This document shows, in pieces, positions 13,949-19,900 of a DNA stretch of 50,977 nt. The position numbers are program-made. The stretch lies in assembly GCA_001938485.1 (NCBI GenBank), contig MQRK01231771.1, positions 3,158 to 54,134 of the forward strand, read 5' to 3'. The stretch comes from Girardia tigrina (Eukaryota). The stretch's first letter is position 1; every line of letters starts with the position of its first letter.

Positions 13949-16900
13949 CTTTGAACAATTAAATTATATACTTAAGTAATTAAACTCTAAAGAAATAAAA
14001 AATTAATCAAATCACAGATCGTCCACGAACAATAATTAACAAAACAAATAGATAAAGAACCCGGAATTGTCGAGAGTAAAAACCACGATAACTTGATCGA
14101 TTGTTAGAAGGATAAATTGCAATAAATAGATCGATTGTTAACAGGACTAATCGCTTATATTTTTTGATAAAATTTATATTAAAAATATCACCTAACGTAT
14201 TTTAGGTATCTAAACAATATTTTTTTCCTAAAATAATTACACTAGAGTTTTGCTATTTTTTTTTAAAGAAAAACTTTCAATTCGGAAGTGTTTTCATGTA
14301 TCAAATTTATATAATTTTAACTCTATTAAAATGCAACCATTTTTGAATAATATAATTTTTAAAAACTTGATTTCTCTTTTCTTTTCCACTTTACTTTCTT
14401 CCTCATTTATTAATCAACAAAACATGCTGACTTTAGGCTTTAGGAAATATTGTCTTGTTAATAATTAATTTATTTTTTATTACATGAATTTCAAATCTAT
14501 CTTTTGTAAATTAAGGGTAATGCGTAATTAAAGGTAACGTTGTGTTATAGTCTTAAATAAAAGATTAATAAGATTGTTTATAAAATATTTATTAACAAAA
14601 AAACAATGTTTAAAGAGTAATAATTAATAATTTCTATTTTTTAAATCATTTTTAATAATTATCATAAATGATAATATAACATCCTCCTTAGGAAATCATT
14701 AATATTTTGATACTGGATTCCTAGTGCTTTTAATCGGGTATCTCATTTTCCTGATAATTGAATCTTTCTCATTTACTTGATTCATAATCTATTGGTGCGT
14801 TTAACTCCCCGTTGTATTTTTATAACTGATTATAATTTCTTCTCATTACTTTCTGCGATGTTTCATCTTGAAGAATATTGATGATGCCTAATACATAACG
14901 ATGACCATCTTTAGTACAACGAAAGGACCACAAATATCTATTTCAATCATTTGAAATGGTTGGTTTACGAAAAATCTCTGAAGAGGGACTTTATCACAAC
15001 CGTTTTTCCCTTCATTCTCGAACATGCTTCACATTTTGTAACGTAATTCCTTATATCTGTTGTCATGTCTGAACAATAAAATTCAATTTTCATTTATAAC
15101 TTTTGTAATATTATAGATAATATAAATTGATTATTTATTTTAGTAAAAATACAAATATTAATATATTACTAACTGTAAAAATAAGGAATCTGATTAAATA
15201 ACTGACAAGCAATAGTTTCGATATCTTTACAAATAAAAATACGACTGAATGACAAACAAACCAAGCTGACCAAAAAAGAGTTTTTGATGAGCTTAGTTGT
15301 TGAAAAAAATAACGCAAATAATAATAAAATAATATTCAGTAAAATTAGAATCAGGATTTTAACTAATAACAGTTTAATTGGATAACAATTACTTACAAAC
15401 TCGTATGATTATACACAAAATGGATAGCAAAAACAGAGATAGGCAATTCAATGTTCGATCAAGAGTTTAATCAACGGATTAGTTAACGAAATCGCAAAAA
15501 AAATGTCTGTCGGAAATCTTGCCGTCAGGAAATACAGAATAATATTTATTTCTATAGTGATTGCAATTTGAAATTTGATTCAAATTGCAATTATCATGAT
15601 AATTAAATTATTATTACAATATAATTATCACGACAATATAATTAAATTATCATGACAATAAAAATTTGGACGATTGTCATACAATTCATATAGATGGCTT
15701 GAATTAATATAATTAATAATAATTAATATAAGAAAATGTTTCATTCTTTTCTTTATCTATCCTTCTTTATCTTCTTCTTTGTTTCCATCACTTGACAAAC
15801 AAATTTGCGTAAAGATAAAAGTAAAAATATGAATAAAAAATAACATTTAAATAAATTACCACATCACATGTTGTCAGAGTATGTACAACTCACGTATACG
15901 CACGTAAAAAGACAAAAAAAGAAAAAAATATATAAATAAAATAAACTGTTAACAACGAAATTGAGAGGTTATTACACAAAACGTTTGCTAAAATGAAGTA
16001 TCACACTAACTATAACAACCTCGTGTTATATTATCACTAAACATAAAAGCACAAATGAAAATAACTATTTCACAATACACAGGTAAAAAATAAAAACATT
16101 TTGATAAATATTTATTTTTCTTTTATTTAATTTTTCAATATTTAAAACTCATTTTTTTAATTTTAATTTTTGTTTTAAATAATTCTGTTATTATTATCTA
16201 CCTGCAATTGTAAGTAGTTGAATTATTATAATTATTAATATATTTATTAATATATATTGCAGATATTAATATATAATTTTTATTTAATTATCTACTTACA
16301 ATTTTAAGTAGATTATCAAGCTTGAGGCTTAAACAAACAAACAAACATTTGGTAAATATATAAGTTTATGGACATGTATAATAAGTTTAAATGAATTTCT
16401 ATAAATAATGATAAAATCATAAAAAATATAATGTTATTAAAAAGATAATTAAGTCATATATGATTATAAAAGTAATTTGGAGCAAAAAACATACCTGGTG
16501 TACGGAGAGCTAATGAGGAGCGAATGGCTGTTGTCCTGTTGGAGGTTTCTATTTGTTGCGGTTGTTGATTTTGGAGTAAATTGAGGTCAATCTGAAGAAC
16601 GATAGTTGTTGACTGATTAGGTTCAACGAAAAAATTACCATAGTCTCAGACATCTGCTCATTATTCGCACGTCGGATTTCAAATGCTGTGTTCGGATTAT
16701 CAAGCTTCATTCTGATTTGCACCTGAAGTAGTGCGTAAGCCAGTTTCGGGTTATCAATTAGGTATTGGCGAGCTTCACACGGATGGTTCTCAATATATTG
16801 TTTCATTTGTGGGATCAAGTCACACAGTTTTTCCTGTGTCATTCTCGCAACTGTCTGTCCAACTACCGACCCAGCTTGTTGTGTGTTGCATTTCTCTTCA

Positions 16901-19900
16901 TAGATATTTCGAAACTCCGTGCTGTTCTTGTCCCGATTGGAAGAAATGATCTTTAACGGCTGGTCGTTGTAGGCCAATGTAATTGTAGCGACTGTATCAC
17001 TGTTATTTTGACTATCGATATCAGTATCAACCTAAATGTAAACATTGAAAGTGCAATTGCTTTAAGTACAATAATTAATTTCGTTTCAGAAAATTAAGAA
17101 GATACAATATATATGATAGTGTATTTACTAATTGAAAATTTTGAAATTCATTGCTCTTAATACCTGAATGTTTCTATTGAAAAACTAAAGTTTGTTGATA
17201 AAATAGAGTGGAATCTTTTATCTTAGTGATGATAATTAAACATTGTGTCTAATAGCATCCTTTTAATCTGCATTCATTTTTGAGGGAAAAATGATTATTT
17301 TTTATTTAGAATTCATTTTCAATAACAACTTTGGGGATAAATTTCGTTGTATTTAAGGAATTTCGGTTTTTCAATGCACAAATTATTTAAAGAAGTGTAA
17401 CGAAATACGCTTATTGAGAATGACAATATAACTTTTAATATTTTTATTAATAATCCAACCAAAGGATCAAGGCGTTACATTCAATTTTCAGGTTTATTAT
17501 TTGTGGCGAACATTTAGGTAGATGTTTGAAAAACAGACGGAGAAAAGAAGCAATCAATAAAAGAATTTTGGAAAAAGCACATTATCATAAATGCTGTAAA
17601 ACGCAAAAACCTTTCTTGGAGTGAAAATTAATTAATAAATTATCGGAAAATTGACATATAACCTAAACCTAATAGACCTAAGAAATTGACCTATAAAAAA
17701 GTCCTGCCCTTTAAAATTGACCAATAAATTTGAAATTTACCTAAAAAATTGACGCATATAACAACAATTCACTTTAAATTAAAAATAGACCATTAAATAC
17801 ACAAGTAAACTAAATAGTTAAAAAACATTACCATTGAAAATCGTTTATTAAACAAAAAAGTAATTTTTAACATTTTTAACGTCAAAATTGAGGTCTTTTG
17901 AGAAAAGTTTTTTTTTTAATCTAGAAAAACTTCTCTCAACAGAAGTGTTTGAGCATGGGGCTTTAATTAAAAACGCATGAGTTTCAGGCGACATTTTTCG
18001 ATTTGGCTCTTCCAAAAACGAAAAAATATCATTTTTATACAATTACTTGATAATGTATTGCTTGATTTCAGCTGGGCCTTCTTCAATTTTTTGATTGCAA
18101 GTCACATTTGTGAATATAGAAGTTTGTGTTTTCGCTTTCGTTCAATAAACGAATAATGCAAACGTATTCTCGAATGATTTTTTTCAAAAGTGCCATTCAA
18201 ATAGAGGATATCAAAAAATCAAGGTCTTCGAATTTTAAATACATACATCAGTTGTGCAGTAGGTGGAGGCTTAACTAAAATTATTTCTTTTAACGATTGC
18301 ACTTTTCGCTGAATACTTTTTAATCAAAGATTTATTTATTCGGGTTTTAACACAATTGTCTAAAGTTGTTGGTTTTCTTCAAAAAAATAAAAAAGATCAA
18401 AATTGTTGGAACTTCGATAAACCACTTTCGATATTTATCGAACATTTAAACACTTGGATAAACATTAAAAAAGATTTATTTCTTCGATTCAGTAGTTCAT
18501 AATAAAGTTCTACTTTAAAATTTCGTCCAAATTTCAGTATTTTTAGAATGAACGATTCCGTGAATACTCCACTAAACACATAAAAGCATCTTTGGATGTT
18601 AGCCTGCCTTATCAATAATCTGTAGTGATATATTCGGAGGGTATCACTGCTTTTCGTACTTTAGATTATTTAATCTTTTTTTAATCTTTACTGATCAAGT
18701 GTTGAAAAACCGCACTTATATTGGGCCATAGGAGTAATAGGTTGCAGCTAGTGCATTGGTTAAATTTGTTTTCTTCAGGCGAACTATGTTGGATTTTCAA
18801 TTACTGTAAATAACAGAATTTATAAATTATCTAGGATCTTAAATTTGAAAATCACTTTAGAATATCTCGTTAAAATTTTGGGACATTGCACACATGATTA
18901 TTTTTTTATTTAAGAGACATAAATTGGGTCGATTTAAAACTATAGTTATAATTTAAGTTTAGTTTAATAAGTTTAGAAATTTTTACCGAATATGTTTACA
19001 TAATCTTTAACTTTAAATTAATTGAAAAAAGCTAATCAGAGTACAGTATTTACTCTCTCAACCGCCATTTTCTCTCAGTCGCCATTTTTTCTTAACCTCA
19101 TGAATCAGGGGATACAAAATTGACTTTTTCAGATTTAAAATGGGATAATTTTTAGAAAGTGTTTAATTTAGAAAAATACATACTTTTAAATATCAATTAT
19201 TGTTTAAATATCAGATAAATATCAATTATTGGCGAATTTAAAAATCAAGGAAATTCACAAAATTGACCATAAATAACATATCCAAAATGTGTCAGACTTA
19301 CAATCAGTGAAAAAATCGAAATTATACGGTATTGTAACACAAATCCACACGTAACAGACAATCAAATTGCGCCCATGTTTGAGCATAAATTTAAAAAACA
19401 AGTTTCTCGATGGATGATCAATGATTTAAGGAAGAAAGAAAGACGATTTATTAAAAAAATGTGAATTTAGAATCAAAGGATAAATATCGCAATCCTATAT
19501 TAAAATATGGAAAAATAGACGAGGAATTATCTGATTATTGATTCTGCGGGTGGAATAATTAATGACAGCATATTAATAAACAAAGCTTTATCTATCACAA
19601 AGACTCAAAATATCATGGACTTCGAAGGATCAGTTGGATGGCTGCTAAAATTCAAAGCAAGACATGAAATTAAGTTGATGAAGTTACATGGAGAATCTTT
19701 TACAACAGCACTTCCAAATAATGAAGATTTTTTAAATGTTTTAAATTCGTTCTTATGGTCCGGATAATGTATACAATGCCGATGAAACTGGTATTTTTTA
19801 TAAACTCAATCTTTCCAAAATTTTGTGTAAAAATGTGAGAAGCGGGTATAAAATATTGAAATATAGAATATCTGTTCTTTTGTGTACAAATATGACGGGA

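What the first reader, a model, noticed from the sequence alone, without database searches (positions are those of the whole stretch)
16495..17031. Nested antisense CstF-64 hinge gene that appears to have lost its RRM
Seen: a minus-strand frame open from an acceptor at 17031 through a recognisable CSTF2 hinge, then a Q/P-containing linker ending at a canonical donor at 16495. Only an RRM-tail-like segment (YNDQPLKI, cf. FSGRALRV) precedes the hinge; the RNP1 motif KGYGFCEY is absent. A possible upstream donor at about 17163 would give ...TFR|LI, echoing the conserved SFR-LV junction, but out of frame with the hinge. No CSTF C-terminal domain exon was found. Established: the hinge binds CstF-77 and symplekin. 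Inference: either a decaying duplicate, or an RNA-binding-deficient paralog that could modulate 3'-end processing, hidden in a housekeeping gene's intron.
Basis: partly seen in the sequence, partly recalled or inferred. Interest (0 to 1): 0.68.

Follow-up and report, generated by a model that had tools for sequence, protein, structure and literature searches.

The report
Lone diverged CstF-64 hinge exon
A stray, strongly diverged but still open piece of the mRNA 3'-end factor CstF-64, holding only its protein-docking hinge and neither of its other two domains, lies backwards inside a 30-kb intron of a metabolic gene; it may be a decoy-like paralogue or a dead gene fragment.

Summary
The hinge is real: minus-strand exon 17031-16639 matches Pfam CSTF2_hinge (E 3.1e-15) and a family profile built without it (E 6.2e-29). 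It aligns in one block with a full-length CstF-64 relative, from the last RRM strand to the end of the hinge. No RNP1/RNP2 and no CSTF_C were found anywhere in the 51 kb. It lies antisense in the 30-kb, transposon-filled intron of an MCCC2-like gene.

The frame stops at 16549. The Q-rich tail up to 16495 is in another frame and needs a 47-base GT..AG intron or a one-base length change.

The copy is very diverged: median 41% identity, against 71% among relatives. Even so, it keeps 18 of 25 near-invariant residues and the hydrophobic pattern, and has no stop. It therefore diverged under protein-level constraint, not by long neutral decay.

It has no start codon of its own. I could not test expression, paralogue count or dN/dS. 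My best reading is an incomplete member of a diverged, RRM-less CstF-64 paralogue lineage, live or recently dead. Interest is modest.

The parts
16639..17031 (-). Exon A: 131 open codons covering the end of an RRM, a linker and the whole hinge. It is bounded by TAG/AG upstream and by ATG|GTAATT downstream.
   Evidence: GC is 42% against 15-24% in the flanks.
16684..16887 (-). CSTF2_hinge domain match (codons 49-116 of exon A).
   Evidence: E 3.1e-15, 56.8 bits, profile positions 9-77 of 81. It keeps 18 of 25 columns that are >=90% conserved in 141 relatives.
16948..16971 (-). RRM-tail-like segment YNDQPLKI (codons 21-28).
   Evidence: It starts the colinear BLASTP alignment to P0005 residues 89-96, inside that protein's RRM_1 match. 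It is not significant alone.
16592..16638 (-). A 47-base stretch where the reading frame changes. It is either a GT..AG mini-intron or the site of a one-base length change (true frameshift or homopolymer assembly error). It begins with a run of six T.
   Evidence: GC is 34%, between exon and intron values. No tool predicts it as an intron and no relative's gene structure could be compared.
16495..16591 (-). Exon B (putative): 32 codons of Q-rich tail plus one base, ending at CAG|GTATGT.
   Evidence: GC is 44%. It has no Pfam match. If the donor is not used, this frame ends 13 codons later.
12890..43054 (+). Host intron of the MCCC2-like gene, holding the finding in antisense together with many transposon relics.
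   Evidence: tblastn with P0151 and P0152 gives exons at 4119-4580, 12803-12889, 43055-43243 and about 45282-45494. The first has a Carboxyl_trans Pfam match.

Best explanation
The stretch is a genuine coding piece of a CstF-64 (CSTF2) family gene. It belongs to a strongly diverged paralogue lineage that has kept only the hinge, the helical module that docks on the CstF-77 'monkeytail' and on symplekin. At this locus the gene is incomplete: it has no RNP1/RNP2, no C-terminal domain and no start codon of its own. If it is still transcribed from the minus strand and spliced to an unseen short 5' exon, the product would be a hinge-only protein of about 160-180 residues. Such a protein cannot bind RNA. 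It would act by occupying the hinge-binding site of CstF-77 and/or symplekin, which would damp or redirect 3'-end processing. Shown here: family identity, domain content, nesting, divergence under constraint, open frame. Inferred: splicing, expression, partner binding, decoy action.
For: Hinge match: Pfam E 3.1e-15; family profile without the query E 6.2e-29. One colinear alignment to full-length P0005: residues 21-131 against 89-210, E 5e-23. Divergence is high: median 41% identity to 141 relatives against 71% among 9862 relative pairs, and only 6 of 141 relatives are more divergent. The divergence is patterned. The exon keeps 18 of 25 columns that are >=90% conserved, 10 of 32 that are 60-90% conserved, and 0 of 11 variable ones. 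Under uniform decay, 2 of 1978 simulations with the same total reach 18. Hydrophobic columns are kept at 27 of 29 and polar columns at 33 of 34. The 40 mismatches average BLOSUM62 +0.15. Expected values are -0.37 for one codon step (78 of 5000 simulations reach the observed value) and -0.87 for two steps (0 of 5000). There is no stop in 131 codons. Under neutral AT-biased substitution, the chance of staying stop-free falls to 0.049 at 0.15 substitutions per site and 0.005 at 0.3. The GC island ends exactly at canonical splice signals. The host gene's own sites are ordinary GT-AG. The host's MCCC2 exon 3 is 75% identical to a bivalve's, so the lineage is not uniformly fast-evolving. The hinge binds CstF-77 and symplekin mutually exclusively (PMC3016980 passages; PMC6294498 passages).
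Against: No start codon: the first in-frame ATG is codon 64, inside the hinge match. No upstream or downstream exon could be identified in 51 kb. The setting, a single exon antisense in a transposon-filled intron, is typical of dead gene fragments. Seven of 25 near-invariant residues are changed, three of them in the S-L-P-P-E-Q start of the domain. The Pfam score of 56.8 bits is below the 65.8-105.1 bits of the 10 relatives scanned. The A-to-B link needs an unverified 47-base intron. The constraint signal could be inherited from a diverged parent elsewhere and says nothing about this copy today. No protein over 52% identical in the 68-residue hinge core exists in the libraries searched, so no orthologue supports it. 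That absence is weak evidence, because the species' own proteins seem missing there (best MCCC2 hit 52%). The elevated GC is not proof of function: a broken pogo-like relic at 20947-22724 is also 41% GC.
Confidence: 0.45

Rival explanations
1. Dead partial duplicate. One or two exons of a CstF-64-like gene were copied at the DNA level into the MCCC2 intron. They are not expressed as protein and are only recently or slowly decaying. The constraint signal was inherited from an already diverged parent gene elsewhere.
For: No start codon, RRM or CSTF_C within 51 kb. The locus is nested in an intron full of pogo, hAT, RT and integrase relics. The frame breaks between 16639 and 16591, which a one-base change in a run of six T would explain as well as an intron does. 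A stop-free frame is still fairly likely at low neutral divergence: 0.35 at 0.05 substitutions per site.
Against: It requires a parent that is itself about 41% identical to the family, although the hinge is normally highly conserved (71% median). It also requires a copy young enough to show no stop or indel in 131 codons. The GC island still ends precisely at splice signals.
Confidence: 0.35
2. It is the organism's ordinary CSTF2 gene. Its RRM and C-terminal exons lie beyond the window or are too diverged or too finely split to detect.
For: Exon A needs an upstream coding exon and is colinear with full-length CstF-64 from inside the RRM. Introns here can reach 30 kb. One weak RRM-like piece lies 6.6 kb upstream on the same strand at 23733-23608, with E 0.084 against my RRM profile.
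Against: That piece scores E 0.96 with the family profile and gets no Pfam RRM_1 hit at E<=1. It is preceded by a stop with no AG before its first codon. It also overlaps exon A in homologous positions. The same profile that gives the hinge E 6e-29 finds nothing else at E<=10. Downstream exons would have to interleave with MCCC2 exons. The hinge is far more diverged than expected for an essential single-copy factor.
Confidence: 0.07
3. A gene fragment picked up and moved by a transposon (transduplication), so one of several dispersed copies.
For: A weak hAT dimerisation relic lies 0.8 kb upstream on the same strand (17851-18042, E 0.091). An integrase fragment lies 1.4 kb downstream. The intron is transposon-rich.
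Against: There is no second copy of the region in the window (self-BLAST). No convincing terminal repeats flank it: the only flanking inverted pair is AT-rich, 27 nt long and 78% complementary. The hAT match is below threshold.
Confidence: 0.08

Closest known systems
CstF-64 / CSTF2 (yeast Rna15), Pfam PF14327 CSTF2_hinge
   Same: The hinge domain is recognised well above the curated cut-off. The exon is colinear with a full-length relative from the RRM end to the hinge end. A hinge-only profile that includes it finds Rna15 hinge structures as the only named solved relatives, weakly: 4eba_G at E 0.013 and 2l9b_A at E 0.09.
   Different: No RNP1/RNP2 and no CSTF_C in the window. A phylogenetic survey found the RRM in CSTF2 of every species it examined (PMC3287031 passages). 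The hinge core is only 41% (median) identical to relatives, and the S-L-P-P-E-Q start of the domain is altered.
tauCstF-64 (CSTF2T), the mammalian CstF-64 paralogue
   Same: It is a second CstF-64-family copy beside the canonical gene, with a hinge that binds the same partners (PMC3016980 and PMC3884657 abstracts in the listing; PMC3016980 passages).
   Different: As I recall, not from a call, CSTF2T is an intronless retrogene that keeps RRM, hinge and C-terminal domain. The copy here has splice-signal borders and keeps the hinge only. CSTF2T was found only in human and mouse in the survey read (PMC3287031 passages).
Database proteins with hinge + CSTF_C but no RRM (e.g. P0020, P0083, P0121, P0144)
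   Same: They are RRM-less members of the same family. By my profiles, 19 of the 150 representative relatives are of this kind. Pfam confirmed 4 of the 5 such proteins scanned; P0039 showed the hinge only. An ESM Atlas cluster of 69 members carries hinge 100%, CSTF_C 97% and RRM_1 13%.
   Different: Those keep the C-terminal domain and a start codon; this one has neither. Many of them may be truncated gene models, and their status is unverified.

Membership tests
CstF-64 / CSTF2 family | Hinge domain (PF14327) | tested here: met
   E 3.1e-15, 56.8 bits against a cut-off of 27. Family profile without the query: E 6.2e-29.
CstF-64 / CSTF2 family | N-terminal RRM with RNP2 and RNP1 | tested here: not met
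   Only the last about 8 residues of an RRM are colinear. My RRM profile was run over 2738 ORFs. Exon A got no hit at E<=20, and the best hit elsewhere was 23608-23733 at E 0.084. That piece scores E 0.96 with the family profile and gets no Pfam RRM_1 hit. This holds for this 51-kb window only.
CstF-64 / CSTF2 family | C-terminal domain (PF14304 CSTF_C) | tested here: not met
   A profile from 49 relatives' C-termini, run over 2738 ORFs, gave a best E of 0.79. The one tblastn look-alike, at 8104-8060, lies in a pogo DDE_1 relic.
CstF-64 / CSTF2 family | Pro/Gly/Gln-rich linker after the hinge | tested here: inconclusive
   A 32-codon Q-rich tail follows in another frame. It has no Pfam or profile match.
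CstF-64 / CSTF2 family | Five-helix hinge fold that binds the CstF-77 monkeytail and symplekin | not testable with these tools
The helix pattern is supported only indirectly: hydrophobic columns kept at 27 of 29. The near-invariant A-R pair is kept at codons 87-88. Equating that R with the helix-3 arginine mutated in PMC6294498 is my inference. Binding itself is untested.
Processed pseudogene / retrocopy | No introns, poly(A) tract, flanking target-site duplication | tested here: not met
   The borders coincide with AG and GT splice signals and a possible 47-base intron. No A-tract lies at the 3' side and no flanking direct repeat was found.
RRM-less hinge + CSTF_C proteins in databases | Hinge near the N-terminus behind a start codon, plus CSTF_C | tested here: not met
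   There is no ATG before codon 64 and no CSTF_C.

The most novel reading that the evidence does not exclude
The locus is a live, lineage-specific 'hinge-only' CstF-64 paralogue, hidden antisense in the MCCC2 intron, that has shed both the RRM and the C-terminal domain. It would act as a natural decoy for the hinge-binding sites of CstF-77 and symplekin. Its near-invariant losses cluster at the start of the domain (the S-L-P-P-E-Q motif), while the rest is kept. In human CstF-64, helix-1 mutations abolished CstF-77 binding but spared symplekin binding (PMC3016980 passages). It might therefore have specialised towards symplekin and so towards histone-type 3' processing.
Probability: 0.15. Interest if true: 0.6.

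Novelty: new member of a known kind. Interest (0 to 1): 0.3.

Why it matters
If it is expressed, this would be a natural RNA-blind competitor inside the core 3'-end machinery. I found no such regulator described for CstF-64. The searches were made, on combinations of 'CstF-64', 'hinge domain', 'paralog', 'lacking the RRM', 'CSTF2_hinge' and 'dominant-negative'. They covered only the held open-access library, and none of the listed titles or abstracts describes one. If it is a dead fragment it is ordinary genome debris. In that case its value is as a marker that a diverged CstF-64 paralogue lineage exists, or existed, in this organism.

Tried and rejected
I switched to stop-to-stop ORFs and to my own profiles.
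2. The tblastn 'CSTF_C-like' hit at 8104-8060 is rejected. It is the L-P-P-N-T-T-S region of a pogo/Tigger DDE_1 relic.
3. The RRM-like piece at 23733-23608 is not supported.
4. Hinge-like tblastn clusters at 26319-26477(+), 40078-40218(-), 28674-28880(-) and 50009-50113(-) are rejected. All have E>0.06 and some contain stops. Their high hit counts only reflect 150 near-identical queries. The family profile sees none of them at E<=10.
6. GC content as evidence of function is rejected, because a broken pogo-like relic is equally GC-rich.
7. phmmer of the exon against PDB gave 0 hits. The profile of full-length relatives was swamped by RRM proteins. Only the hinge-only profile reached Rna15, and weakly.
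8. Word-indexed protein searches found nothing in either the longer or the near length range. This is uninformative about annotation, because the species' proteins seem absent from the library.
10. Rfam and tRNA scans of the window gave 0 matches each.
11. The organism was not identified beyond 'AT-rich, probably invertebrate animal'.
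Full report
**Setting.** The window is 27% GC overall (20-34% in 2-kb steps), has seven N runs, and is full of transposon relics. I left the N runs untouched. I take it for an AT-rich eukaryote, probably an invertebrate animal, and not for human. On the plus strand lies an MCCC2-like gene (methylcrotonoyl-CoA carboxylase beta). 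The ORF at 4086-4640 matches Pfam Carboxyl_trans (E 2.7e-17). tblastn with library relatives P0151 and P0152 places exons at 4119-4580, 12803-12889, 43055-43243 and about 45282-45494. One source names P0152 a methylcrotonoyl-CoA carboxylase of a bivalve. The finding (16495-17031, minus strand) therefore lies antisense in the roughly 30-kb intron 12890-43054. The best library match to the MCCC2 exon 1 ORF is only 52% identical. The species' own proteins thus seem absent from the protein libraries.

**The observation.**
- A frame opens at 17031 directly after a TAG, whose AG can serve as acceptor. It runs 160 codons to a stop at 16551-16549.
The Q-rich tail (16591-16496) is in another frame.
- The two frames connect if 16638-16592 (47 bases, GTAATT...TTCAG, with a CTAAT about 24 bases before the AG) is spliced out.
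- They connect equally well if the sequence differs by one base in length from a continuous exon. The stretch begins with a run of six T, and both frames are open across it.
- Its GC content (34%) lies between the exon values (42-44%) and the flanks (15-24%).
- No tool here predicts introns, and no relative's gene structure was available. I therefore treat the intron as unverified.
- I left out the joined A+B product: it was neither built nor searched.

**Identity.**
- Exon A matches PF14327 CSTF2_hinge at codons 49-116: E 3.1e-15, 56.8 bits, cut-off 27.
- An exhaustive phmmer over 1.84 billion representatives gave 257 proteins at E<=1e-3, 10 at <=1e-10 and none at <=1e-30. The best was 45% identical.
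- All 150 rows of alignment A1 (exon A plus 149 of the 150 listed relatives) carry the hinge. 70 carry RRM_1 and 64 carry CSTF_C.
- A profile of 149 of the listed relatives, built without the query and run over all 2738 six-frame ORFs of at least 12 codons, gave this ORF E 6.2e-29. Only one other hit appeared at E<=10.
- Against the full-length relative P0005 (RRM_1 25-95, hinge 121-198, CSTF_C 390-426), exon A gives one colinear alignment. Residues 21-131 match 89-210 with E 5e-23 and 35% identity.
- The exon thus corresponds to the last RRM strand, the linker and the complete hinge. The RRM-tail likeness is real as part of this colinear block but not significant alone.
- A hinge-only profile (A2: exon A plus 28 short relatives) finds yeast Rna15 hinge chains as the only named solved relatives, weakly. 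4eba_G scores E 0.013 and 2l9b_A scores E 0.09. An unrelated-looking third hit scores E 0.052.

**What is missing.**
- No RNP1/RNP2 and no C-terminal domain turn up anywhere in the window.
- Profiles built from 50 relatives' RRMs and 49 relatives' C-termini found only 23608-23733(-) for the RRM (E 0.084). For the C-terminus the best was E 0.79.
- The 23.7-kb piece fails the family profile (E 0.96) and Pfam (no hit at E<=1). It is preceded by a stop without an intervening AG. It overlaps exon A in homologous positions. I do not count it.
- A tblastn look-alike of the C-terminal motif at 8104-8060 lies in a pogo DDE_1 relic.
- The first in-frame ATG of exon A is codon 64, inside the hinge match, while homology starts at codon 21. 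An upstream coding exon must exist or have existed, and none is identifiable.

**Is it decaying?**
- The hinge core (68 columns) is a median 41% identical to 141 relatives. Nine of the 150 were dropped because their matched stretch was too short. The median among 9862 relative pairs is 71%, and 6 of 141 relatives are more divergent.
- Seven of 25 near-invariant residues are changed. Four changes are conservative and three fall in the S-L-P-P-E-Q start of the domain.
- The changes are not random. Retention is 18 of 25 in columns >=90% conserved, 10 of 32 in columns 60-90% conserved, and 0 of 11 in variable ones. Of 20,000 uniform-decay simulations, 1978 had the same total of retained residues, and only 2 of those reach 18.
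- Hydrophobic columns are kept at 27 of 29 and polar ones at 33 of 34.
- The 40 mismatches average BLOSUM62 +0.15. The expectation is -0.37 for single codon steps (78 of 5000 simulations reach the observed value) and -0.87 for two steps (0 of 5000).
- With AT-biased neutral substitution, exon A stays stop-free with probability 0.35 at 0.05 substitutions per site, 0.049 at 0.15 and 0.005 at 0.3, indels ignored.
- Together these results reject long neutral decay from a canonical hinge. They do not tell whether this copy is alive today: a recent copy of an already diverged parent would look the same.
- The GC island ends exactly at the splice signals. GC alone proves little, since a broken pogo-like relic is also 41% GC.

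**Reading.**
- I put 0.45 on an incomplete member of a diverged, RRM-less CstF-64 paralogue lineage that is or recently was coding.
- I put 0.35 on a dead partial duplicate, 0.07 on the ordinary CSTF2 with unseen exons, and 0.08 on a transposon-carried fragment.
- The mechanism, if it is expressed, is inferred from the literature. The hinge binds CstF-77 and symplekin mutually exclusively through overlapping sites. The CstF-77 contact also brings CstF-64 into the nucleus. These points come from passages of PMC3016980 and PMC6294498.
- Hockert et al. 2010 is known to me only from citations in those passages, since PMC2804217 is not held. The supplementary figure of PMC3016980 that defines the five helices could not be seen, so I could not map helix borders onto this sequence.
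- A hinge without an RRM would occupy those sites without binding RNA.
- RRM-less family members are not rare in databases. 19 of 150 representatives are hinge plus C-terminal domain without an RRM. Pfam confirmed 4 of the 5 scanned. Atlas clusters show the same. A survey found the RRM in every canonical CSTF2 it examined (PMC3287031 passages).
- I found no described hinge-only paralogue in the searches (held library only).

Noticed in passing
window 14823-15093 (-) and 13176-13749 (+): Retroelement (virus-like) relics, described only. A short fragment of an integrase zinc-binding domain lies at 14968-15093 (Integrase_H2C2, E 3e-6, 26 residues matched). By eye, what may continue it lies in two other frames, so there are at least two frame changes; Pfam does not confirm this. 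On the other strand lies an RT tail (RVT_1, E 4e-4, below the gathering score), with one frame change to the next ORF. Neither is anywhere near a complete gene.
   Followed up: partly
window 4119-4580 (+): Exon 1 of the MCCC2-like gene is 61% GC (70% in its 3' half, GC3 0.76) in a 27% GC window. It lies just before a 635-base N run. Exon 3 of the same gene has GC3 of only 0.25. Several bacterial carboxylases match this exon about as well as the animal one does. Unexplained.
   Followed up: no
window 19273-20528 (+), 21255-22275 (-), 7836-8233 (-): Three pogo/Tigger-like DNA transposon relics with DDE_1, HTH_Tnp_Tc5 and CENP-B_N matches. Each is split over several ORFs.
   Followed up: partly
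window 32707-33015 (-) and 17851-18042 (-): hAT dimerisation-domain relics. The first is clear (E 2.2e-9). The second is weak (E 0.091) and lies 0.8 kb upstream of the hinge exon on the same strand.
   Followed up: partly
window 23608-23733 (-): A 42-codon ORF that by eye recalls RNP1 through the RRM end of insect-type CstF-64. It is statistically unsupported: E 0.084, E 0.96, no Pfam hit. It is either chance or a second, far more decayed relic.
   Followed up: yes
window 33155-34221; 738-1235 vs 50039-50540; 7417-7850 vs 38598-39121: Internal repeats. One is a tandem of about 350 bases (93-96% identity). The other two are dispersed repeat pairs (83% and 96-100% identity), the second pair next to N runs.
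   Followed up: no
window 16639-17031 (-), third codon positions: GC3 of the hinge exon is 0.44, well above the 0.25 of MCCC2 exon 3 and above the 15-24% GC of the flanks. This could mean a fairly recent arrival from a GC-richer place. The host gene itself is too heterogeneous to judge.
   Followed up: no
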